Notes under the pieces: model-generated
What the model was told of the DNA's origin: nothing
Seen by the model: only the letters and a program-made list of their open reading frames with translations
The model's database searches: none
Position numbers and translations under genes: made by a program
Shown: one piece after another, positions 9,368 to 62,413 of the stretch
How positions within the stretch are numbered: position 1 is the stretch's first letter
How the letters are laid out: every line of letters starts with the position of its first letter
Virus record (IMG/VR): IMGVR_UViG_3300049460_000196
Location: 1 to 64,000 of that record
Direction: 5' to 3' (one strand)
DNA: 64,000 nt
Source of the DNA: a virus

Positions 9368-10783
9368 TTAAGCTGCCAGCTTGTAGCGGTCAACCATCAC
9401 GGCTTCCAGCATCACGGACATTGGCGAGAAGTCCTTGGCACCCAGCACAGCTTTCAGGATGGCTGGCGAGAAACCAGATACCAGCGCAACGCCGCTGTCG
9501 TCATAGCGCGTTGGGGCGCTACCATGCGAGTTCAGGTTCCAGAACACGATGTTCGGTGCCTGGTAACCAGCTTCCGCGTACTTGGTGCGGATCATTTCCA
9601 TCGCTTGCACGGAACGGCCCTGGATGCAGTTGTTATCGAACTGCATATCCGACAGGATCAGGATGTTCTCTGGCATGTGCTCAGGTGCAACCTTCTGCGC
9701 CACCGCGATCTTCAGCACTTCCTCGAAAGCCGCCTGGATGTTGGTGTTGTACGCAACCTGCGAACCCATCTGATCCAGTTTCTGGAAGATGTCACCTTGC
9801 AGGTTGTACAGCTTAGGCACGTCAGTGAAGGTCATGAACGTGTCTTTGAACGCACCAGTGTTCTTTTCTGCCAGGTACAGACCCAGCGACATTGCCACAT
9901 TCATGCAGCTAACAGTACCGCTACCACCGGCAGGGCTACCCATCGAACCCGACACGTCAACCATCGGCAGGATAGACGCTTCACCGACGAAGTTTTCCAG
10001 GGCTTCCCACTGGGCAACCATCACCTTGCGAACGGCCTCGTCCATCGAACGACGTTCGTACGCCGTGAACGCACCTTTCAGCACATCGTATGGGTAAACG
10101 GCGCCGCTGTTGATCTTGGCTTCGCCAGTCGTCAGTGCTTCGGCGTACTTAGTGTAAGCGGCTTCAGCATTACGCTTGAACGCTTTCTTGTAGCGAGCAG
10201 CAGCCAGCGATGGCACGTGGCCGAAGTTGATGTTGTCCCAGTCTTTCGCGCACATCTGGGTTTCCACGACTTTCGTCAGGGTCACCAGAGTCTTGCGGTA
10301 GCGCTTAGGCGAGAAGCCCAGGTAGGCACGCAGCTCTTCAGCTACCTTGCCTTTACGTGGCATCCACTTTGCGCACAGGCCGTTACCAGCTTCCAGGCCA
10401 CCTTTGATCAGCTCAAAAGCGTGCTGGCGCAGGATTGGGTGCTTGACGGTCAGCAGGTCATCCCAACGACCGATTTCTGGGATCTTTTGCATGAGCTTCT
10501 GAGCCAGTGCGCTATCCTGGTTTTCCAGGTAACGCAGCACTTGCTTGAACAGCTCACGCTCGCCAGCACCACCGCGAACGTCACGCGCCCACTGCATGAT
10601 GCGCACAGCAACGTCGGCATCTTCCACGAAGGCCGATACAAACGCTGGGATCGGATCTTTACCGCGCATCGCGCCGATATGGAAGAACAGGTCAACACAC
10701 TTGTTCAGCGTGGACTTGTACGCCAGGGCGCCGTTGGTGGTGGTGGTTTCTTGCTCGTTGATTGCTTGTGCGAAAGTAGTCAT
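9368..10783 (-). CDS. TROVE/Ro60-related helical-repeat plus vWA protein (DUF2828-type)
   Basis: N-terminal TTNGA, RDVRGGAGER, GRWDDL, AKWMPR; vWA MIDAS DVSGSM, ILSDMQFD, VFWNL, SGFS. Confidence 0.88.
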   Translation of the reverse strand: MTTFAQAINEQETTTTNGALAYKSTLNKCVDLFFHIGAMRGKDPIPAFVSAFVEDADVAVRIMQWARDVRGGAGERELFKQVLRYLENQDSALAQKLMQKIPEIGRWDDLLTVKHPILRQHAFELIKGGLEAGNGLCAKWMPRKGKVAEELRAYLGFSPKRYRKTLVTLTKVVETQMCAKDWDNINFGHVPSLAAARYKKAFKRNAEAAYTKYAEALTTGEAKINSGAVYPYDVLKGAFTAYERRSMDEAVRKVMVAQWEALENFVGEASILPMVDVSGSMGSPAGGSGTVSCMNVAMSLGLYLAEKNTGAFKDTFMTFTDVPKLYNLQGDIFQKLDQMGSQVAYNTNIQAAFEEVLKIAVAQKVAPEHMPENILILSDMQFDNNCIQGRSVQAMEMIRTKYAEAGYQAPNIVFWNLNSHGSAPTRYDDSGVALVSGFSPAILKAVLGAKDFSPMSVMLEAVMVDRYKLAA

Positions 10784-10806
10784 CTTTTTGTCCTCTTGTT
10801 GTAGTT

Positions 10807-10930
10807 AACTGGATCAGTTGTGCTGAATTATTTGGTAACGTTCAGTATCGTTAGGTCCCGGAGCCACTGGGAGGTTGTAAGTCCCAGTCCTCACGGTAGC
10901 GCGTGTTTTTGAATTGCTGTATCTGATCCA
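10807..10930 (-). ncRNA. ACAGCAA-module RNA in the leader of the TROVE/vWA gene (Y-RNA-like)
   Basis: TGGATCAG-A-TACAGCAA ... CTGATCCA-GTT terminal helix enclosing two hairpins; same architecture as the 39-40 kb elements. Confidence 0.7.
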
Positions 10931-18841: not shown

Positions 18842-18954
18842 TGGTCCGTCCAAAGGGATTCGAACCCCCATTGATCCGCTTACTCGACTACCGCTTAGAA
18901 GACGGTTGAGATACGGGCGGTTATACGTGCTCTATCCATCTGAGCTATGGACGG
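18842..18954 (-). tRNA. aberrant tRNA-Arg(UCU)-like RNA: D-armless core plus an extra upstream 5' half
   Basis: T-arm GGGGTTCGAATCCC, TGGACGG-A-CCA end, ACCGT-CTTCTAA-GCGGT arm; upstream CCGTCCA-TAGCTCAGATGGATAGAGCA. Confidence 0.7.
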
Positions 18955-38816: not shown

Positions 38817-39374
38817 TTATGCTTCGCTCAAATACTTGTATGGGACACAGTCAACCAACCACACGCCGTTAGTTGACAAGTAGAAGGTGTGGCCATTTTC
38901 GACCATGCGATGAGCATCGACCTTATACATGAACAGTTCACCATGCCGTGTGCCGACATTGCTGGCAGTTTCCTGATTGGAACTGAGATGCACATAGTGG
39001 CGAGTTTTTGGAATCAAACCCATCTTGTTGATTTCAGATACGAACTTGGTTGCGGTGCCATGATACAGCGTATCTGGAGGTTCCGCGACATCGAACGTGA
39101 GGTCAACTTGTGGTGTTGAGTGGCCTTGATTGCAGCGAATTTGCAGTGTGTGTTGTTCACCGCGCATCGAGTAACGAGTCTTGGTGTCGCTGGCCACAAT
39201 TTGCAGCAGCTCTTCCATGGTAAGCGGGTGTTTATCCGCTGCCATCTTCGACAGCAGGGTATCAACATAGACCCAGCCCTGGATGTCCAGGATAATGTTG
39301 AGTTTTTCAGGAAAATGACGCAGGACGCCACTCATGTACACACTGAATTTTTCTAGTTCTTTTTGACTACGCAT
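38817..39374 (-). CDS. kptA: RNA 2'-phosphotransferase (Tpt1/KptA)
   Basis: S..MS.VLRH.P, D.QGW, D.K.RY, IRCNQGHS, LYHGT, R.YVHLS, RHG, NGVWL. Confidence 0.96.
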   Translation of the reverse strand: MRSQKELEKFSVYMSGVLRHFPEKLNIILDIQGWVYVDTLLSKMAADKHPLTMEELLQIVASDTKTRYSMRGEQHTLQIRCNQGHSTPQVDLTFDVAEPPDTLYHGTATKFVSEINKMGLIPKTRHYVHLSSNQETASNVGTRHGELFMYKVDAHRMVENGHTFYLSTNGVWLVDCVPYKYLSEA

Positions 39375-39387
39375 GATATTTCCATTT

Positions 39388-39489
39388 AACAGAATCGTTG
39401 CCCACTAACCATTGGAGCAGTCAGAGCCGGCTTTCACCAAGCCCCGACAGGAGTCGAACCTGCGATATTTTATTTGCTGTAACGATTCT
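39388..39489 (-). ncRNA. circularly permuted tRNA-like RNA 1 with ACAGCAA module
   Basis: AGAATCGT-TACAGCAA..T-arm GCAGG-TTCGACT-CCTGT, loop-closed acceptor stem, D-like GCTCCAATGGTTAGTGG..ACGATTCT-GTT. Confidence 0.8.
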
Positions 39490-39495
39490 ATGAAT

Positions 39496-39623
39496 AACAG
39501 GATGGTGGTTTTTGCTGCTCTTACGAGCGATGCTGTCCTAACTTAGACTACAGCCCACAGGCCGACGGGATTCGATACCCGCACACACACCTTGAAATAG
39601 CGGTAAATTGCTGTGACCATCCT
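39496..39623 (-). ncRNA. circularly permuted tRNA-like RNA 2 (Glu-like) with ACAGCAA module
   Basis: AGGATGGT-CACAGCAA..ATTTCAA-GGTGT, T-arm GCGGG-TATCGAAT-CCCGT, CGGCC..GGCTG, D-arm GTCT-AAGTTA-GGAC, GCATC..ACCATCCT-GTT. Confidence 0.8.
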
Positions 39624-40181: not shown

Positions 40182-40206
40182 GTTGTTCCTTGTTGTTTTT
40201 ATTCAT

Positions 40207-40233
40207 GAAAAGGGCCCACCGAAGTGAGCCCTT
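40207..40233 (-). terminator. terminator after the permuted-RNA pair
   Basis: AAGGGCTCAC-TTCG-GTGGGCCCTTTT. Confidence 0.75.
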
Positions 40234-40375
40234 GCGGGTTGTTTTGCCTTTAGGCCAGTGCATTAGACCACTCTGCCATCCTTGGGACGAAGCCTGAGGA
40301 GTGGGATTCGAACCCACGAAGTAAGCCTTGGCGAGGCTCCTTGCCGGCTTGTGTATTGTTTGCTGTACACAACCC
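40234..40375 (-). ncRNA. circularly permuted tRNA-like RNA 3 (Ser-like) with ACAGCAA module
   Basis: GGGTTGTG-TACAGCAA..AA-GCCGG, long variable arm, GTGGG-TTCGAAT-CCCAC, closed acceptor, TGGCAGAGTGGTCTAATGCA, CTGGC-CT..ACAACCC. Confidence 0.85.
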
Positions 40376-40381
40376 AAAATT

Positions 40382-40529
40382 AACAGGATCGCGATGGATT
40401 GAACCATCTTTTAGTCGGGCGCGTCTACCGGTTTCGCCACAGACGAAAGATTTCGCTTTCGCCCGGGAGGGCTCGAACCTCCATGCCTTGCGGCACCTGA
40501 TTTCCGTTTAGTGTTGCTGCATCGATCCT
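40382..40529 (-). ncRNA. circularly permuted tRNA-like RNA 4 (Leu-like) with GCAGCAA module
   Basis: AGGATCGA-TGCAGCAA..AA-TCAGG, TGCC-GCAA-GGCA arm, GGAGG-TTCGAGC-CCTCC, closed acceptor, TGGCGAAACCGGTAGACGCG, CCCGA-CT..CGATCCT-GTT. Confidence 0.85.
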
Positions 40530-40549: not shown

Positions 40550-40578
40550 ATTAGAACACGGCGTTTCTGGAGTGTCAA
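40550..40578 (-). promoter_or_regulatory. sigma70 promoter for permuted RNAs 4 and 3
   Basis: TTGACA-17 bp-TCTAAT about 20 nt upstream of RNA 4. Confidence 0.65.
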
Positions 40579-40752: not shown

Positions 40753-41286
40753 TCAATATGTATCAAATACCAGATGTATTCGTGTTTGATCACTGGCATT
40801 TACTGCGGTGTGCATTTCATTTGTCTTAAAACGATACAAACGCCCCACCGTTACCATACGTTCAATCTTATCGGCATTTACGAAAAAGCATCTGGGATTA
40901 GTATCGATGGGAATATGATACCGGAACTCTTCAACATCACGATGCAATGTATAGCAAGTCTTTGGTTGCAAATACATGAAGCGAATACGCCCAATATTCA
41001 CATTGTCAATTACCGCTTGTGCTTTCACGGCATCAATCACAGTTTCCATATAGGTGCCATGGAAGTGTTGATTCAATATCGCGAAGTCATGTGTGAACCG
41101 ATCAAAGACATTCAAGTCGTAGTTAAACAGCGGGCCTACACTTGAGAACCATCCTGAATCAGTTTGGGAATGTGTTACTGATAATTGCTGCCAGGTTTGG
41201 AATTCTGGCAGCAATGTAATATCTGGAATCGTACTTTTGATTCGTTGAGCAGCAAAAGTATTGGGGGTGGCGGTGATTGATTTCAT
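40753..41286 (-). CDS. aspartyl/asparaginyl beta-hydroxylase-like 2OG-Fe(II) oxygenase
   Basis: GRIRFM.L.P...YTLHRD, RYHIPI.TN, HTAVN.S...RIHLV. Confidence 0.85.
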   Translation of the reverse strand: MKSITATPNTFAAQRIKSTIPDITLLPEFQTWQQLSVTHSQTDSGWFSSVGPLFNYDLNVFDRFTHDFAILNQHFHGTYMETVIDAVKAQAVIDNVNIGRIRFMYLQPKTCYTLHRDVEEFRYHIPIDTNPRCFFVNADKIERMVTVGRLYRFKTNEMHTAVNASDQTRIHLVFDTY

Positions 41287-41618: not shown

Positions 41619-42224
41619 TCAAGTCTTAAATGAAAGATCATGTTCGACCTGTCTTGTCGCCCAAGCTCGTTCACTGCAATGAAAGCATTGACCACATGCT
41701 GGAATTGAGTCATGTTTCGGGCACGACCGAGTCAATTCCAATAATTCAGATAAGCCCAATGTCTCGTACAGGTAAATGGTTGCACGCTTATCGAAGGTAA
41801 CAAATGGAGTGGCATAACCACGATACTTATTATCCATCGCAGTTAAGGGACGAGATGGAGCTGGCCCCGTGTAATCCCAGTCAAACGGATTCTGGGTTAC
41901 ACCTGTGTACAGCCAATCCATAGTTTCCATCGTTTGATAGATGTCACGACGCAGCTTATTGTCGATCAACACGAACTCATGTTCACGAGACTTCAACTCT
42001 ACGTTGAATTGATTTTCTAACCAACCCAACGTATTGCTGATACTTGCATTCTTGAGACCATTACGGAAAACTGTATAGATCTTATCAGGCACCAACCCAT
42101 TTGCCAACAGTAGATACATGAGGATCACACTGTCAGCGCCACCGGAATACGAAATACCCGTTTGTCCTTCATGGATGGGTATTATCACATTCCGGTATGG
42201 AGTTGGATAAATGACTTCGCGCAT
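41619..42224 (-). CDS. QueC-like PP-loop ATPase
   Basis: SYSGGADS, PF...DK, TRSC, CGQCFHCSER. Confidence 0.8.
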   Translation of the reverse strand: MREVIYPTPYRNVIIPIHEGQTGISYSGGADSVILMYLLLANGLVPDKIYTVFRNGLKNASISNTLGWLENQFNVELKSREHEFVLIDNKLRRDIYQTMETMDWLYTGVTQNPFDWDYTGPAPSRPLTAMDNKYRGYATPFVTFDKRATIYLYETLGLSELLELTRSCPKHDSIPACGQCFHCSERAWATRQVEHDLSFKT

Positions 42225-43820: not shown

Positions 43821-44762
43821 TTATTCCTCTTTATTAATTTGGGCAAGCGCATGGCGCTCGCGTAGAACTTCCGTGATCTCTTCTGGAAGCTCCAATAAAC
43901 TATCGTATTCTGGATACTTACTGTGATGCGGTAATCTGAAAAACTTTTCAAATGCCCAGCCATCACCAGTCATATTGGCAAAATGTTCTTTCACCAATTC
44001 AAACCCTGTATACTTCTGTTGCTGTGGAATAACACTCAAACCCAATCTGTGCATACCGGTCACCTTCGCGATGTAGCGAAGTGCGATATCGGTTGGCATA
44101 TCGGGCTGAAACAGCATGAAAGGTAAGGCGATGTCAAGTGTATATCCAAGGAAATTTCCTACCAAAGGATATTTATTGATTTCAGCAAACGTCATCCAGA
44201 CACTATGACTGCGATTGGAAATGAACTCCCATTTGCCATCTCTTATACATGGTGGATTGCCGCCGCAAATAATAGCTGATGGAGCAAACCGTTCAATCAG
44301 CATTTCGTAGAAACGGCAATGGGCAGATAGCTGTGGCGATGGACAGTTGTATTTGACCACATAGGATGGAAGGTCGCGGCCCAGAAAACTCAATATGTTG
44401 AAGTCAACCAGCGTGTACTTGAATCTATGTGTTGTGCAAAAGGTGATGGCGGAAGAAACGTCATGGATATTCAGGTCATCACGAAATTGCATAATCACAA
44501 TGGTGAATTTCACATTAGCTCGTCGCAGCAAAAGGCATGCCGCCTGACTGTCAATCCCACCACTCAAGGCAACATATATGTTTGGCCCCAAAGATGCGGA
44601 AACGCTTGCTATTGACGCCTGCTGACGAGCCAGGAGTTCGGAAGGGATATAAGCACCAGTAAGTATATCAAATTGAGCGCCAGCTGACATCCGCCAAACC
44701 AGTTTGTTGACTGGTTCGACCGTGGGGGACAACCATTTTTCATGAAAAATACCTGGGGTCAT
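43821..44762 (-). CDS. PP-loop (asparagine-synthase-like) adenine nucleotide alpha-hydrolase
   Basis: VALSGGIDS, KYTGFE. Confidence 0.7.
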   Translation of the reverse strand: MTPGIFHEKWLSPTVEPVNKLVWRMSAGAQFDILTGAYIPSELLARQQASIASVSASLGPNIYVALSGGIDSQAACLLLRRANVKFTIVIMQFRDDLNIHDVSSAITFCTTHRFKYTLVDFNILSFLGRDLPSYVVKYNCPSPQLSAHCRFYEMLIERFAPSAIICGGNPPCIRDGKWEFISNRSHSVWMTFAEINKYPLVGNFLGYTLDIALPFMLFQPDMPTDIALRYIAKVTGMHRLGLSVIPQQQKYTGFELVKEHFANMTGDGWAFEKFFRLPHHSKYPEYDSLLELPEEITEVLRERHALAQINKEE

Positions 44763-46387: not shown

Positions 46388-47575
46388 GTACCACTGAGAT
46401 TACATGGTCCTCGTTGACGCTTCGAACATTATTAGCCAGGATTGCGTCCCAACCTTCTTTCGATATCCACTAGAGCCCCTTTCGGGTAATCTAGTACGCC
46501 AACATCATCGCCGTTTTAAGTCAGGCAGTAGACTTGACACAGGGTGCTATTCTACGACTTTCCATCCGTTGACATTCGACTGCCATTAGAGCTTGCGGGC
46601 CCTACGAACTTCTTTTCATAAACCAACTAGGCCTTGCGAGCTTCGCTGAACTTGATTAACTTTCGTCTCAAGTATTAGATGATTTTCACACCCTGCCGAG
46701 GTAGACTTTGCATTTTGTATAAGTAAACGGTTTGATCGTTCGCTCTTTCTCCAATGAAAGTGCCATTTCTGGCGTGCAACTCACTGCGACGTGCTACCTC
46801 AGCTGCTCCAAAGTCTTTTGGACTCCAGAATACAACACGCCACGTATCTTTCGCCTCGCGGGCTACCGGATCGTCTTTCTCGACTAATGTCCACACCCTT
46901 GCGGATAGTCCACCAACCGATAAAACTGCATCATACCTCTTGGGTGCGACCCCTCGAAACATAACACTACCTTTCCCCGTACAAGATGGCAAGTTGGATT
47001 TGTGATGAGACTCGGCTCCCGCCATGTTCTCCCTCAACTGATGTTCCCTAACGAGCAAGCCCGCTAGGCATCTAAGCCAAGGTTCTTTCCATCACTCTTG
47101 CGTCCCAATTATCTCCAGGATAACCTGAAGTGCTTCCTTTCGGAAGCCGGGTCGGCTTGCATAACAGAACCACTTGCATGGCGCGGCTGCGTGAGCTTGA
47201 CCGCTTTCCCCGGGTTGCCCCGGCTCTTCCTTCCAATATACGGCAAGCCGTATACCGTGGAGCTATGCCCCCAAAACTTGTTTTACTCATAAATTCTACA
47301 AATACCCATTAAAGGAACGGCTGATACTAATGGAGCGACCATTATAAGGTTGCGAACCTCGCAGTGAACAAGTCACCGGCATATCAACTATGCGTTAGTA
47401 TCGTCAGGCAGCCGCACTGGCTGTTACTCCCTATTGTCCACCCGCACACGGAACAATCAACTACCGCGGTCAGGTCGCGTGCCATCAGGCAGTAGGTAAT
47501 TGACGGCTAGGATTTACACCTAGTACGTTCCATTAATGAATACTCAGAAAACACATGAGTAAAACAAATTGCTTA
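46388..47575 (-). ncRNA. large structured ncRNA, GOLLD-like
   Basis: ~1.2 kb with no credible ORF, many GNRA-capped hairpins, long-range helices 47278-90/47556-68, 3' GTAATCTCAG, next to a tRNA, own promoter. Confidence 0.65.
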
Positions 47576-48299: not shown

Positions 48300-48692
48300 T
48301 TATTCAAATTCCTGGTAGCATACAACCCGCTGCACAACACCATCGATAAACACAACAGCATCATCGCCATGTTTTGCTTTCCACAGTTGGGCGAAAGCAT
48401 CAAGGCTCAGATTGGTGGCATTGCGGGCATTATGAATATGAGTTGCATGCGACAAACTCAAAGTGCGTTCATGTATCCAGTCACGGGTGATGGGCAATTC
48501 CACTAACCCATTGACTTGCTGTTTCAGCTCAAGAAAATGAACTTGATACGCATCACCAAGAACATATTGTTTGATGCATGCCACCAGTTGCGGATTGTGC
48601 CGAAACGCTTTCCCTGCCTGCTTATGTCGGGTCAACTCACTAATCAATACGGGCACTACTTCATTAGGTATACGTTTTTGCTCAGTATTCAT
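48300..48692 (-). CDS. hypothetical protein
   Basis: start trimmed to MNTEQ, directly after the RNase P RNA. Confidence 0.55.
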   Translation of the reverse strand: MNTEQKRIPNEVVPVLISELTRHKQAGKAFRHNPQLVACIKQYVLGDAYQVHFLELKQQVNGLVELPITRDWIHERTLSLSHATHIHNARNATNLSLDAFAQLWKAKHGDDAVVFIDGVVQRVVCYQEFE

Positions 48693-48693
48693 G

Positions 48694-49054
48694 GTTTCCA
48701 ACGCCTCATAGCCGGGGTTCTGGTTCTCTTCCATCATTCATCTATGAGCATTACTGCTCATCCTCGCCGCCTTTCAAAACGGGTCATAGGTGCTACAACC
48801 CAGGCACTCGTCAGGTGGAGTCAACATGCCCTGTTTGTATTGCTGCGGAATCGTTGTGGTACAAGCGAAGCTTTTCCGTTCCCTATCTGATATCGAGTCG
48901 TTCAACACGGAGAACGGGGCACCGCAGAAGACACTTAGGCACATATATCAGTCAGTTTATCATTACTAGCTTCTCCCAACAGAGCGATAGCCCTACCTTG
49001 TGCAGCCCCGAACTTCCTCAAGCTTTCGCCTGCGATGGATCGAGCGTTGGAAAC
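48694..49054 (-). ncRNA. rnpB: RNase P RNA
   Basis: P1 GTTTCCAACGC/GCGTTGGAAAC; GAGGAAGTTCGGGGCT (P4 5'), TAGATGAATGAT, CAGAACCCCGGCTAT (P4 3'); ~360 nt. Confidence 0.88.
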
Positions 49055-50737: not shown

Positions 50738-50968
50738 TGGTGGACGCGACGGGACTTGAACCCGCGTATTTCCTTGTACCCGGGCATTACTCCGGGATCT
50801 AACACAACTTGGAAAATCCGCTTCCCTTGCTGTTTATCGCCACCTGTTGCCAGGCCGCTATAGGTGCGGGGTAAAACCATGCGTTATGCCAGACTTGCGA
50901 CTTGGAACCCATTTTATTGGAACCCCTGCCTATTTTTAGGAGTGCATCGCCCTCTTTGCTACGCGCCC
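50738..50968 (-). ncRNA. 231-nt tRNA-like RNA with ~160-nt structured insertion in the anticodon arm
   Basis: GGGCGCG/CGCGTCC-A-CCA (G3:U70), D-arm, T-arm GCGGG-TTCAAGT-CCCGT; insert contains ACAGCAA; own promoter TTGACT-17-TACCAT. Confidence 0.75.
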
Positions 50969-54476: not shown

Positions 54477-54539
54477 CTGCTACTCCGTGTTCGTTTATCT
54501 TGTTCCTATTATAGGCGTAGATGAACAAACAATCAAGTA

Positions 54540-54752
54540 TTAGTCACGTTTGTTTGCCAGTTCGTTCAACTGTTTGCTGAGGTCGGCGTCGGTTTCGGCG
54601 GTGATCACGCCCAGCTTAACCATGTTGTTCATGGTACCACGATACACTTCAAACTCGCGGTTATCGAACGACTCAACCATCACGTGCTCGCGACCAGTGT
54701 CGCTGTCGAAGGTGTCGTAGTTGTGTTTGATCTGCGCGTTGATGATATACAT
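54540..54752 (-). CDS. hypothetical protein
   Basis: AGGAG RBS and promoter. Confidence 0.6.
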   Translation of the reverse strand: MYIINAQIKHNYDTFDSDTGREHVMVESFDNREFEVYRGTMNNMVKLGVITAETDADLSKQLNELANKRD

Positions 54753-54817
54753 GGTCGCTCCTGCATTTGTGTAGAATCACATTATAGACGCAGATGAACA
54801 GAAAATCAAGTAATATT

Positions 54818-54901
54818 TGGTGGACCAGAGCGGAATTGAACCGCCACGACGTCGCGAACGTCTTTCCCAGTGCGGAGGACTTGTACTCACCTGAGTAGCC
54901 C
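54818..54901 (-). ncRNA. degenerate tRNA-like RNA
   Basis: GGCGG-TTCAATT-CCGCT, ACCA end, variable-arm hairpin; D and anticodon arms irregular. Confidence 0.5.
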
Positions 54902-54926
54902 AGCGAAGCACCAATACATGATGCTT

Positions 54927-55003
54927 TGGTGGACTATGGGGACTCGAACCCCCTCTCCCTGGCCCGTAATGATCAGCCTCGTGGGGCTTGTCCCACAATC
55001 TCC
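54927..55003 (-). ncRNA. degenerate tRNA-like RNA (UAC-like loop)
   Basis: GGGG-TTCGAGT-CCCC, TAGTCC-ACCA; non-standard D region. Confidence 0.5.
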
Positions 55004-55095
55004 GCCATTAGATGTAGCGGTGCTGAATCACGCTTCTGAAGCTACTCGCTTGAAGCCGATCATTACGAGCGACTGTTGCCAGTCACCCAGCTGGT

Positions 55096-62024: not shown

Positions 62025-62300
62025 TCATTTACTACATGTAATTGGCTGAACTGGATTGCCACGGAAACCTGGTTGATACACTTGCACCAAGGCCACGCCA
62101 CCAGCACCATTACTGGTATTCGACTTTTCCTGCGAAGCAACAGCAAACACGAAGCCACTCAAGCATACCGTGTTGACTGTTACCGTTGCATTGTTGTTAG
62201 TCTTAGTTGATACCGACTCTGGGCGAAACACAGGAGCAACGGCATCAGCCGCAAATGCGGTACTGGCGAGCAACAGGGTAGTGAGGATTACTTTTTTCAT
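62025..62300 (-). CDS. small secreted protein
   Basis: signal peptide MKKVILTTLLLASTAFA; two Cys; start trimmed. Confidence 0.7.
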   Translation of the reverse strand: MKKVILTTLLLASTAFAADAVAPVFRPESVSTKTNNNATVTVNTVCLSGFVFAVASQEKSNTSNGAGGVALVQVYQPGFRGNPVQPITCSK

Positions 62301-62413
62301 ATTTGATATTATTGGGGGCGGGTGGAGGACTCGAACCTCCGACAACGTCCTTACAAGGGAATTGAGGGTTATGCTGTGACTATCCTGATCAGGATCGTGC
62401 CTTTCGGCTTCTA

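What the first reader, a model, noticed from the sequence alone, without database searches (positions are those of the whole stretch)
40234..40529. Tandem circularly permuted Leu- and Ser-type tRNA bodies in their own transcription unit
Each reads 3' anticodon strand, long variable arm, T-arm, acceptor stem closed by a short loop, D-arm, 5' anticodon strand. The D-arms are isotype-typical (TGGCGAAACCGGTAGACGC for Leu; TGGCAGAGTGGTCTAATGC for Ser). The anticodon stems (CCCGA/TCAGG; CTGGC/GCCGG) and the flanking CT...AA are retained, while the anticodon triplet is replaced by the module. The pair has a dedicated promoter (40550-40578) and terminator (40207-40233). Leu and Ser synthetases do not rely on the anticodon (established), so these bodies could still be recognised. 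Permuted tRNA genes are known from red algae and some archaea. Independent derivation from different isotypes implies a repeatable permutation mechanism (inference).
Basis: partly seen in the sequence, partly recalled or inferred. Interest (0 to 1): 0.88.

Follow-up and report, generated by a model that had tools for sequence, protein, structure and literature searches.

The report
Phage Y-RNA-like Leu/Ser tRNA mimics
The two "permuted tRNAs" are real, but they are most likely not tRNA genes: they belong to a widespread, uncatalogued family of small phage RNAs that copy tRNA bodies and share a handle that travels with a Ro60-like RNA-binding protein.

Summary
Observation confirmed. On the minus strand, M1 (40380-40529) and M2 (40236-40375) each read anticodon-stem 3' strand, long variable arm, T arm, loop-closed acceptor, D arm, anticodon-stem 5' strand. 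Rotated in silico, ARAGORN calls both tRNAs; their nearest relatives among the phage's 55 tRNAs are Leu and Ser.

The reading as permuted tRNA genes is not supported. Both are closed by an outer helix followed by CAGCAA, a handle shared by at least 12 same-strand cassettes in this 113-kb jumbo-phage fragment and by hundreds of other viral contigs. A covariance model built only from foreign cassettes hits M1 (52 bits, E 8e-8) and M2 (45 bits, E 2e-6) end to end.

The handle travels with a DUF2828/DUF7788 gene (here 9368-10783), whose predicted fold matches Ro60 (Z 12-15). Phages with a classical TROVE Ro60 have the same tRNA-like core but a different handle.

Best reading: Y-RNA-like partner RNAs of a phage Ro60-like protein, laid out like YrlA, with class II tRNA cargo. 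Leu-type cassettes recur in more than 100 contigs, so M1 was inherited. No Ser-type counterpart was found.

This scan had already met this handle family in other genomes.

The parts
40550..40578 (-). Sigma-70-like promoter candidate, TTGACA-17-TCTAAT
   Evidence: Read from the sequence. The scan did not list it because the -10 has C at position 2. Similar TTGCAx-17-TATNNT sites precede other cassettes. Unverified.
40380..40529 (-). M1, a Leu-type cassette. Outer helix AGGATCG (40529-40523) pairs with CGATCCT (40391-40385). CAGCAA at 40519-40514. Permuted tRNA-Leu-like body at 40500-40415. Extra T-loop-like hairpin at 40408-40393. GTTAA tail at 40384-40380.
   Evidence: Model R1: 52.2 bits, E 8e-8, end to end. 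ARAGORN calls a tRNA after rotation. Closest phage tRNAs are Leu. Fold keeps the outer helix, V, T and acceptor hairpins.
40236..40375 (-). M2, a Ser-type cassette. Outer helix GGGTTGT (40375-40369) pairs with ACAACCC (40242-40236). CAGCAA at 40365-40360. Permuted tRNA-Ser-like body at 40348-40254. No GTTAA tail; it runs into the terminator.
   Evidence: Model R1: 45.1 bits, E 1.9e-6, end to end. ARAGORN calls a tRNA after rotation. Closest phage tRNA is Ser(GCT).
40206..40233 (-). Intrinsic terminator: 10-bp stem with a UUCG loop, then UUUU
   Evidence: Rfam partial matches to sRNA terminators fall at 40210-40233.
39494..39623 (-). M3, a sister cassette (AGGATGGT ... ACCATCCT GTTAT) with a permuted tRNA-like core
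   Evidence: R1 53.3 bits, E 5e-8. Rfam YrlA 15.7 bits, not significant.
39386..39489 (-). M4, a sister cassette (AGAATCGTT ... AACGATTCT GTTAA), directly upstream of kptA
   Evidence: R1 44.9 bits, E 2e-6. Fold.
38817..39374 (-). Tpt1/KptA RNA 2'-phosphotransferase gene, downstream of M3 and M4
   Evidence: PF01885, E 2e-42. The linkage to cassettes is not conserved elsewhere: 0 of 37 records and 0 cassette hits in 379 kb of KptA-anchored loci.
9368..10783 (-). Gene for the presumed partner protein, DUF2828 + DUF7788 with a Ro60-like fold
   Evidence: Pfam. PHROG 850 'RNA-binding protein'. AlphaFold2 model pLDDT 80.8. The top 13 Foldseek matches and top 10 VIA-align matches are all Ro60.
10805..10930 (-). 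Handle cassette directly upstream of the Ro60-like gene (TGGATCAG ... CTGATCCA GTTAA); its cargo is not tRNA-like
   Evidence: R1 21.5 bits, from the handle only. The same position is occupied in 37 of 45 foreign loci with full flanks.

Best explanation
M1 and M2 are two small non-coding RNAs of a phage family that works like bacterial Y RNAs of the YrlA type.

Each RNA is closed by a 7-9 bp helix formed by its two ends (consensus WGGAU.../...AUCCW). The sequence CAGCAA follows the 5' strand. An A-rich strand precedes the 3' strand, and usually a GUUAA tail follows it. This handle is the likely binding site of the phage's Ro60-like ring protein (DUF2828/DUF7788, window 9368-10783).

The handle holds out a cargo that varies between cassettes. 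In M1 and M2 the cargo is a complete class II tRNA body (anticodon stem, long variable arm, T arm, D arm) whose acceptor end is sealed by a loop and whose anticodon loop is opened into the handle. It cannot decode. As made, it cannot be charged.

The cargo most likely presents a tRNA-Leu-shaped or tRNA-Ser-shaped elbow to a protein that recognises tRNA bodies: a synthetase, a modification or repair enzyme, or a host nuclease. It would either tether that protein to the Ro60-like ring or soak it up.

Shown here:
- the structure
- membership of the family
- covariation
- linkage of the handle to the gene
- the Ro60-like predicted fold
- that handle type follows protein type

Inferred:
- physical binding of M1 and M2 to the protein
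- the identity of the protein that reads the tRNA body
- the benefit to the phage
For: 1. Family. At least 12 cassettes with the handle lie on the minus strand of this genome and none on the plus strand. A pattern scan of IMG/VR gave 92 loci, most of them true cassettes, often several per contig.

2. Covariation in 39 foreign cassettes. 93.5% of cells are paired against 62.9% in shuffles. The covariation score is 0.785 against 0.187. 20 of 23 pairs show double changes, and slid controls score about 0.13.

3. Membership. Model R1, built without this genome, scores M1 at 52.2 bits and M2 at 45.1 bits, full length. It gives 0 hits in 379 kb of unrelated loci.

4. Linkage.
- 31 of 37 RNA-anchored records hold DUF2828, against 1 of 12 records that matched the pattern by chance (Fisher p = 4e-6).
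- 78 of 80 protein-anchored loci hold a same-strand cassette, 217 on the gene's strand against 19 opposite.
- 79 of 79 R1 hits are on the gene's strand.
- 37 of 45 loci have a cassette ending within 150 nt of the start codon.

5. Fold. Foldseek gives E 1.5e-7 to 3e-5 and TM 0.42-0.58 to Ro60 chains. VIA-align gives Z 11.9-15.0 over 321-406 of 471 residues. The next tier matches the vWA domain only, with Z at most 9.5.

6. Specificity. Mycobacteriophage Nicholas has the DUF2828-type protein and a CAGCAA cassette beside the gene (88 bits). Mycobacteriophage ET08 has the TROVE type and is the published phage YrlA. It has the same T-acceptor-D core but no CAGCAA, AGGAU or GUUAA.

7. Precedent. YrlA has the same V-T-AS-D order and binds Rsr (PMC4201824). 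Thermus phage phiLo Ro60 binds two RNAs encoded upstream of its gene (PMC12135203).
Against: - No expression, end-mapping or binding data.
- M1 and M2 lie 29 kb from the Ro60-like gene, not beside it.
- M2's handle departs from the consensus: GGGUUGU in place of WGGAU, and no GUUAA.
- The protein resembles Ro60 by predicted fold only. A sequence profile against PDB sequences is not significant (E 2.3), and the Pfam vWA_Ro60 match is below cut-off.
- The genome is about 27% complete, so other partners cannot be excluded.
- The outer helix was used to pick the training cassettes, which inflates its pair counts. The T, acceptor and D helices were not selected for in this way.
Confidence: 0.68

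Rival explanations
1. True permuted tRNA genes. The transcript would be circularised or ligated across the anticodon loop and opened at the acceptor cap, giving functional tRNA-Leu and tRNA-Ser.
For: The arm order matches permuted tRNA genes, and ARAGORN accepts the rotated bodies. M. smegmatis YrlA is cut by RNase P and receives CCA (PMC4201824). The phage carries an RNase P RNA-like gene at 48692-49052 (48.7 bits, E 2.6e-13) and a Tpt1/KptA gene 1 kb away.
Against: - There is no anticodon triplet. Joining the flanks to a 7-nt loop gives GGA, AGA or AAA on the Leu body and CAC, AAC or AAA on the Ser body. None of these fits the body (read).
- No CCA follows the acceptor 3' strand, while the phage's own Leu and Ser genes encode CCA.
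- M2's acceptor helix has two mismatches.
- No splicing endonuclease, RtcB, Rnl1, Rnl2 or CCA-adding enzyme is found in the 113 kb.
- The phage already has 9 Leu genes, and 3 genes that ARAGORN calls Ser.
- The same handle encloses cargo that is not tRNA-like.
Confidence: 0.04
2. Free-standing tRNA-body decoys or sponges that act without the Ro60-like protein. They would titrate LeuRS or SerRS, tRNA-modifying enzymes, or a host nuclease that recognises class II tRNA bodies. The handle would serve only for stability or processing.
For: The bodies are faithful class II mimics with a covarying anticodon stem. Leu-type cargo is conserved in more than 100 contigs, which points to a specific reader of that shape. 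From general knowledge, LeuRS and SerRS do not read the anticodon.
Against: The handle sequence is conserved far beyond what stability needs. It tracks the DUF2828 gene, and it changes when the protein is of the TROVE type. This rival overlaps the best explanation, because decoy action and Ro tethering can coexist.
Confidence: 0.18
3. Processing or punctuation elements: tRNA-like structures that direct RNase P or RNase Z cleavage of the operon transcript, or that stabilise neighbouring mRNAs.
For: The cassettes sit between genes and inside tRNA arrays. An RNase P RNA-like gene is present.
Against: M1 and M2 have their own terminator and a promoter-like site. Short cassettes with unstructured cargo keep the handle. 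The sealed acceptor lacks the free 3' end that such enzymes use. This reading does not explain the strict link to the Ro60-like gene.
Confidence: 0.06
4. Decayed or rearranged tRNA pseudogenes without function.
For: None beyond M2's weak acceptor helix and its atypical handle.
Against: There are compensatory changes in all helices across phages, significant model scores and a strict strand bias.
Confidence: 0.01

Closest known systems
YrlA Y RNAs with Rsr/Ro60 (Rfam RF02553; Chen et al. 2014, PMC4201824; tRNA-like domain structure, bioRxiv 10.1101/312249)
   Same: The ends pair into a protein-binding stem. The rest is a tRNA mimic in the order V, T arm, loop-closed acceptor, D arm. The RNAs are encoded on the same strand as a Ro60-type gene, often in several copies. 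They occur in phages as well as bacteria.
   Different: The handle differs: WGGAU helix + CAGCAA + A-rich strand + GUUAA, in place of GNCGAAN0-1G. The partner is DUF2828/DUF7788, which no TROVE model detects. The Rfam model does not reach its cut-off: nothing at all for M1 or M2, 15.7 bits for M3. M1 and M2 add a full class II variable arm and a true anticodon stem. There are many cassettes per genome, and some have cargo that is not tRNA-like.
Thermus phage phiLo Ro60 with Yrl1/Yrl2 (PMC12135203; PDB 9KOP, 9L5Y)
   Same: A phage-encoded Ro60-fold ring whose partner RNAs are encoded just upstream of its gene. It is the best structural match of the protein model here (Z 15.0).
   Different: phiLo's protein is a recognisable TROVE protein. 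Its RNAs are stem-bulge-stem Y RNAs with a CGAA motif and are not described as tRNA mimics.
Bas63 gp130 (PhageMaP preprint, bioRxiv 10.1101/2024.10.10.617714)
   Same: Per the preprint, gp130 is a Ro60-like protein encoded directly upstream of the phage's tRNA array, the same layout as in the Felix O1-like locus L356. Felix O1-like phages carry homologues at 39-40% identity. An unannotated cassette lies in the tRNA array of a Felix O1-like phage (L356:5355-5485, 74.9 bits). The authors guessed that some annotated tRNAs may be Y RNAs, and they report that gp130 counters the Ppl defence system.
   Different: No RNA was identified there. I did not check that Bas63 gp130 itself is the DUF2828 homologue.
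Circularly permuted tRNA genes of Cyanidioschyzon merolae and some archaea (from general knowledge; reviewed in PMC3400036)
   Same: The 3' half of a tRNA lies upstream of the 5' half, joined through the acceptor ends.
   Different: Those genes keep every tRNA nucleotide including the anticodon. They are processed at a bulge-helix-bulge motif by the splicing endonuclease and mature into working tRNAs. Here the anticodon is missing and the break is occupied by a conserved protein-type handle.

Membership tests
Circularly permuted tRNA genes (red-alga / archaeal type) | 3' half upstream of 5' half, joined at the acceptor ends | tested here: met
   Sequence. ARAGORN calls tRNAs after rotation.
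Circularly permuted tRNA genes (red-alga / archaeal type) | All tRNA positions present, so that processing restores a 7-nt anticodon loop with an anticodon that fits the body | tested here: not met
   No triplet lies between the stem strands. All possible junctions give GGA, AGA or AAA (M1) and CAC, AAC or AAA (M2), none of them a Leu or Ser anticodon for that body (read).
Circularly permuted tRNA genes (red-alga / archaeal type) | Bulge-helix-bulge motif at the transcript ends, and a splicing endonuclease | tested here: not met
   The ends form a 7-bp helix with a 13-22 nt junction strand, not a 3-4-3 bulge-helix-bulge. No PF01974 in the 113 kb. The fragment is only about 27% of the genome, so the absence of the enzyme is weak evidence.
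Circularly permuted tRNA genes (red-alga / archaeal type) | A free, CCA-bearing acceptor end after processing | not testable with these tools
   No CCA is encoded after the acceptor 3' strand, although the phage's true tRNA genes encode it. Processing needs RNA data.
YrlA (Rfam RF02553) | tRNA-like domain in the order V, T arm, closed acceptor stem-loop, D arm | tested here: met
   The same order appears in the Rfam consensus shown.
YrlA (Rfam RF02553) | Score at or above the Rfam gathering cut-off (69 bits) | tested here: not met
   No YrlA match for M1 or M2 even at E up to 10. M3 scores 15.7 bits, lower than tandem-tRNA false positives at 20-27 bits.
YrlA (Rfam RF02553) | GNCGAAN0-1G motif near the 5' end (the proposed Rsr site, PMC4201824) | tested here: not met
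   Absent from M1-M5. CAGCAA stands at the corresponding place.
YrlA (Rfam RF02553) | Within about 4 kb of a TROVE-domain Ro60 gene, on the same strand | tested here: not met
   No TROVE match in the 113 kb. The Ro60-like DUF2828 gene is on the same strand but 29 kb away.
CAGCAA-handle phage Y-like RNAs (uncatalogued; defined here by model R1) | Terminal helix WGGAU.../...AUCCW that covaries beyond the conserved bases | tested here: met
   M1 has AGGATCG/CGATCCT. M2 has the variant GGGTTGT/ACAACCC.
CAGCAA-handle phage Y-like RNAs (uncatalogued; defined here by model R1) | CAGCAA 1-3 nt after the 5' strand of the helix | tested here: met
   M1 at 40519-40514, M2 at 40365-40360. The motif is invariant in 39 of 39 and 22 of 22 aligned cassettes.
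CAGCAA-handle phage Y-like RNAs (uncatalogued; defined here by model R1) | A-rich 3' junction strand and a GUUAA tail | tested here: inconclusive
   M1 has CUAAAA and GUUAA. M2 has CUAAAGGCAAA but GCAAG in place of GUUAA.
CAGCAA-handle phage Y-like RNAs (uncatalogued; defined here by model R1) | Significant end-to-end score with a model built from other phages | tested here: met
   M1 52.2 bits, E 8e-8. M2 45.1 bits, E 1.9e-6.
CAGCAA-handle phage Y-like RNAs (uncatalogued; defined here by model R1) | A DUF2828/DUF7788 Ro60-like gene in the same genome, on the same strand | tested here: met
   Window 9368-10783, minus strand.
CAGCAA-handle phage Y-like RNAs (uncatalogued; defined here by model R1) | Physical binding to the Ro60-like protein | not testable with these tools
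   Inferred from linkage and from handle type following protein type.

The most novel reading that the evidence does not exclude
The class II bodies are working parts rather than mere shapes. The phage RNase P-like RNA or the host enzyme would open the acceptor cap, CCA would be added as in M. smegmatis YrlA, and LeuRS or SerRS would bind or even charge an anticodon-less tRNA body tethered to a Ro60-like ring. Alternatively, the sealed bodies are specific baits for a host defence nuclease that recognises long-variable-arm tRNAs. Either way, a phage would be using isotype-specific tRNA mimics on a Ro particle in the contest over the host's translation apparatus.
Probability: 0.12. Interest if true: 0.85.

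Novelty: new variant of a known kind. Interest (0 to 1): 0.62.

Why it matters
Y RNAs and Ro60 are known from animals, about 5% of bacteria and a few phages, and what YrlA's tRNA-like part binds is still unknown.

What this locus adds:
- A second, much larger phage branch of that system. The protein occurs in 710 cultured phage genomes (Felix O1-like, cluster-L mycobacteriophages, Listeria P100, Vibrio nt-1 and others) and in thousands of metagenomic proteins.
- Its RNAs are neither in Rfam nor annotated. Some lie unnoticed inside tRNA arrays.
- The cargo can be an isotype-specific class II tRNA body (Leu-type, conserved in more than 100 contigs; Ser-type here).
- Handle type follows protein type, which gives a direct test of the binding site.
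- For annotation, such "permuted tRNAs" in phages should be filed as Y-like RNAs, not as tRNA genes.

Tried and rejected
- Native-order ARAGORN and Rfam at gathering and at E up to 10: nothing for M1 or M2.
- blastn of the locus against 50,697 phage records: no match.
- Close relatives through the KptA and hydroxylase-like neighbours in IMG/VR: none.
- Resemblance of the handle to Dictyostelium class I RNA (CUUACAGCAA after a terminal stem): seen only at M4, E = 3, and not repeated at other cassettes. Rejected as coincidence.
- A conserved link between cassettes and Tpt1/KptA: 0 of 37 records and 0 cassettes in 379 kb of KptA-anchored metagenome loci. Rejected.
- Ser-type counterparts in other phages: none by regex on fetched loci or by a dedicated scan, whose one real cassette was Leu-like.
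- TROVE, RtcB, Rnl2-type and Rnl1-type ligases, CCA-adding enzyme and tRNA splicing endonuclease in the 113 kb: none. The fragment is about 27% of the genome, and the Rnl1 control rang nowhere.
- Sequence-level link of the protein to Ro60: not significant. Only the fold comparison shows it.
- Whether M1 is nearer to the phage's own tRNA-Leu genes or to foreign Leu-type cassettes: about 75% against 80% identity by hand count on the arms, too close to decide.
- Supplementary tables of Chen et al. 2014 are not held.
So there is no expression evidence and no syntenic loci from the closest relatives.
Full report
THE OBSERVATION

The window is the first 64 kb of a 113,103-base IMG/VR virus record that CheckV rates 27% complete. 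It has 47.6% G+C, at least 55 tRNA genes and a GOLLD RNA. It is therefore a fragment of a very large phage.

The finding lies on the minus strand, in the 356-nt gap between two small ORFs.

- ARAGORN and Rfam see nothing in the native order.
- I rotated each module in a script and put any triplet between the stem strands. ARAGORN then called both as tRNAs.
- Among the phage's own 55 tRNAs, the best global matches of M1 are three tRNA-Leu genes (up to 60 of 75 aligned positions). Its variable arm matches one Leu(CAA) gene at 13 of 14 positions. The best match of M2 is tRNA-Ser(GCT), at 63 of 83.

So the isotype labels hold. M2's acceptor helix is poor: 4 bp, a 2x2 internal loop, then 2 bp.

Each module is enclosed by a further helix made of its outermost bases. 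In M1 this is AGGATCG with CGATCCT. In M2 it is GGGTTGT with ACAACCC. CAGCAA follows one to three bases after the 5' strand.

Two more units with the same frame lie 0.7 kb downstream, directly before a Tpt1/KptA gene: M3 and M4.

A script that asks only for CAGCAA preceded by a strand whose complement lies downstream found at least 12 such cassettes on the minus strand of the 113 kb. It found no full cassette on the plus strand. Their frame is W-GGAU-nnn, N1-3, CAGCAA, insert of 38-293 nt, nnn-AUCC-W', GUUAA. The variable part of the helix changes in a compensatory way from copy to copy.

The inserts differ:
- permuted tRNA-like cores (M1-M5)
- a D-then-T arrangement
- short A/U-rich stretches, two of which sit between tRNA genes in the array
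- two large structured inserts

THE FAMILY ELSEWHERE

A pattern scan of IMG/VR for the frame with a 95-125 nt insert returned 92 loci. Most are true cassettes with complementary outer strands, often several per contig.

I aligned 39 foreign cassettes with a T loop in the first half. All four helices are supported:
- 93.5% of cells are paired, against 62.9% after shuffling.
- The covariation score is 0.785, against 0.187 after shuffling and about 0.13 for slid partners.
- 20 of 23 pairs show changes on both sides.

The outer helix was used to pick the sequences, so its counts are inflated. The T, acceptor and D helices were not selected in this way.

A covariance model (R1) built from this alignment alone was run on this genome. 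All of the following hits are end to end and on the minus strand:

| Cassette | Bits | E-value |
|---|---|---|
| M5 | 89.6 | 5.3e-15 |
| M3 | 53.3 | 5.1e-8 |
| M1 | 52.2 | 8.2e-8 |
| M2 | 45.1 | 1.9e-6 |
| M4 | 44.9 | 2.1e-6 |

The model gave no hit at E up to 0.01 in 379 kb of unrelated metagenome loci.

THE PARTNER PROTEIN

My first guess was a YrlA-like RNA, but the 113 kb holds no TROVE protein and no RtcB. Earlier notes of this scan on other genomes named DUF2828 as a companion of the same handle. I treated this as a lead and tested it.

The genome encodes a 471-residue DUF2828 + DUF7788 protein at 9368-10783, on the minus strand, with a cassette directly upstream.

Linkage, from the RNA side:
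- 31 of 37 records picked by the RNA pattern alone, with a true cassette, hold the gene. Most are fragments of 2-30% completeness, and some are only 4-6 kb long.
- 1 of 12 records that matched the pattern by chance holds it (Fisher p = 4e-6).

Linkage, from the protein side:
- 78 of 80 loci picked by the protein hold at least one same-strand cassette within 3 kb.
- There are 217 cassettes on the gene's strand against 19 opposite. Shuffled sequence gives 12 on both strands together.
- All 79 R1 hits in these loci are on the gene's strand.
- 37 of 45 loci with full flanks have a cassette ending within 150 nt of the start codon.

Fold:
- An AlphaFold2 model has pLDDT 80.8 and pTM 0.74.
- Its 13 best Foldseek matches in the PDB are all Ro60: Xenopus, human, Deinococcus Rsr and Thermus phage phiLo, with E 1.5e-7 to 3e-5.
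- VIA-align gives Z 11.9-15.0 over 321-406 of 471 residues. The next tier covers only the vWA domain, with Z at most 9.5.
- By sequence the link is not significant.
- PHROGs calls the family 'RNA-binding protein'.
- 710 cultured phage records carry it. Some mycobacteriophage records label it 'Ro-like RNA binding protein'.

HANDLE TYPE FOLLOWS PROTEIN TYPE

- Mycobacteriophage Nicholas has the DUF2828-type protein. A CAGCAA cassette lies just downstream of the gene (88 bits).
- Mycobacteriophage ET08 is the phage example in the YrlA paper (PMC4201824). It has a TROVE protein and no DUF2828.
- The RNA upstream of the ET08 gene aligns to R1 in the T arm, closed acceptor and D arm. The CAGCAA, AGGAU and GUUAA positions are deleted or mismatched there. 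Rfam YrlA matches its core at 37.4 bits.

This is what one expects if the handle is the protein's binding site. It also shows that the published phage YrlA and the present family share the core but not the handle.

THE CLASS II CARGO

39 distinct full cassettes were recovered.
- In an alignment of M1 with 21 of them, the anticodon stem has changes on both sides at all 5 pairs. Examples are TCAGG/CTTGA, TCTGG/CTAGA, ACCGG/CTGGT, ATCAC/GTGAT and ACAGT/ACTGT. It is 83% paired.
- A variable-arm hairpin is usually present.
- Some cassettes are close to M1 over the whole segment. For example, L265 has GGAAACUGG UGCCGCAAGGCUUG GAGGUUCGAG.

So the Leu-type body, with its anticodon stem, is an inherited and selected subtype. 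It is not a fresh permutation in this phage. No Ser-type counterpart of M2 turned up, so M2 may be rare or local.

Of the 'CT...AA' flanks, the A-rich run after the stem and a GAAA before it recur across the subfamily. The CU itself is peculiar to M1.

TRANSCRIPTION

The scan tool skipped it because the -10 lacks A at position 2.
- Similar sites (TTGCAT-17-TATATT, TTGCAA-17-TATAGT, TTGATG-17-TATACT, TTGCGG-17-TATACT, TTGCAT-16-TACCAT) precede other cassettes.
- The terminator after M2 is clear.

WHY NOT TRUE PERMUTED tRNA GENES

- There is no anticodon, and every possible junction gives a triplet foreign to the body.
- There is no encoded CCA, though the phage's tRNA genes encode it.
- There is no bulge-helix-bulge motif at the ends.
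- No splicing endonuclease or RNA ligase is found in the fragment.
- The frame is shared with cargo that is not tRNA-like.

Two facts keep a small door open. M. smegmatis YrlA is cut by RNase P and receives CCA (PMC4201824). This phage also carries an RNase P RNA-like gene (48692-49052, 48.7 bits, E 2.6e-13, below the cut-off of 100).

The KptA gene next to M3 and M4 is not a conserved neighbour of cassettes.

COMPARISON WITH WHAT IS KNOWN

The architecture and the logic are those of YrlA with Rsr, and of phiLo Ro60 with its upstream Yrl RNAs (PMC12135203). Membership in Rfam YrlA fails on score, on the 5' motif and on the TROVE neighbour.

I found no paper on the CAGCAA handle. 'DUF2828' occurs in five held papers, none about phages. 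A 2024 preprint reports that Bas63 gp130 is Ro60-like and counters the Ppl defence system, and it guesses that some of its 'tRNAs' are Y RNAs. A Felix O1-like record does hold an unannotated cassette in its tRNA array.

I therefore rate this a new variant of a known kind. Within it, M1 is a member of a conserved Leu-type subtype, and M2 is the only Ser-type example I could find. The scan had already met this handle family in other genomes. I scored on what I tested here.

Noticed in passing
window 48692-49052 (-): Full-length match to bacterial RNase P RNA class A at 48.7 bits, E 2.6e-13. This is below Rfam's cut-off of 100, so it was missed at the gathering threshold. It is probably a divergent phage-encoded RNase P RNA, and it bears on whether tRNA-like RNAs here are processed.
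   Followed up: partly
window 46391-46843 (-): GOLLD RNA, 203 bits against a cut-off of 150, inside the same RNA-rich region.
   Followed up: no
window 40393-40408 (-): M1 carries an extra hairpin, GATGG-TTCAAT-CCATC, with a T-loop-like but 6-nt loop, between the anticodon-stem 5' strand and the outer helix. Other cassettes have an optional hairpin at the same place (M3: GCTC-GTAA-GAGC).
   Followed up: partly
genome 66,592-66,657, about 71,941-71,990 and 100,797-100,867 (minus strand; L002, L003): Short cassettes keep the full handle, but the insert is only about 35-45 nt of A/U-rich, apparently unstructured sequence. Two of them sit between tRNA genes in the array.
   Followed up: partly
genome about 73,700-73,951 and 74,020-74,334 (minus strand; L002): Two adjacent cassettes with the handle enclose 227-nt and 293-nt structured inserts of unknown kind.
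   Followed up: no
genome 105,765-105,889 (minus strand; L004:5765-5889): M5 is the best family member in this genome (89.6 bits). It has a canonical class I D arm (TAGCTCAGTTGGTAGAGC) and a TTGCGG-17-TATACT promoter-like site upstream.
   Followed up: partly
window 62270-62386 (-): A cassette-like element with CAGCAT in place of CAGCAA, a good T arm and an imperfect outer helix (32.7 bits). It may be a decayed or divergent member.
   Followed up: no
window 54538-55017 (-) and 50738-50826 (-): ARAGORN calls a permuted tmRNA at 54538-55017. Rfam gives a weak tmRNA match (20.5 bits) at 50738-50826, next to an ACAGCAA at 50827-50833. Neither was examined.
   Followed up: no
window 18845-18954 (-): Rfam calls a tRNA spanning 110 nt (37.8 bits) that ARAGORN does not report. 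It is probably a tRNA-like gene with an insertion.
   Followed up: no
L356:5355-5485 (Escherichia typing phage 1, NC_041979.1) and L355:4044-4176 (Mycobacterium phage Nicholas, MF140421.1): Cultured, annotated phages carry unannotated CAGCAA-handle cassettes beside their 'RNA-binding protein' or 'Ro-like' gene (74.9 and 88 bits).
   Followed up: partly
window 41619-42224, 43821-44762, 40753-41286 (-): The neighbours of the RNA cluster include a QueC-like protein, a protein with a weak match to the tRNA methyltransferase (PP-loop) HUP domain, and an Asp/Asn beta-hydroxylase-like protein. This suggests a region devoted to RNA and tRNA metabolism.
   Followed up: no
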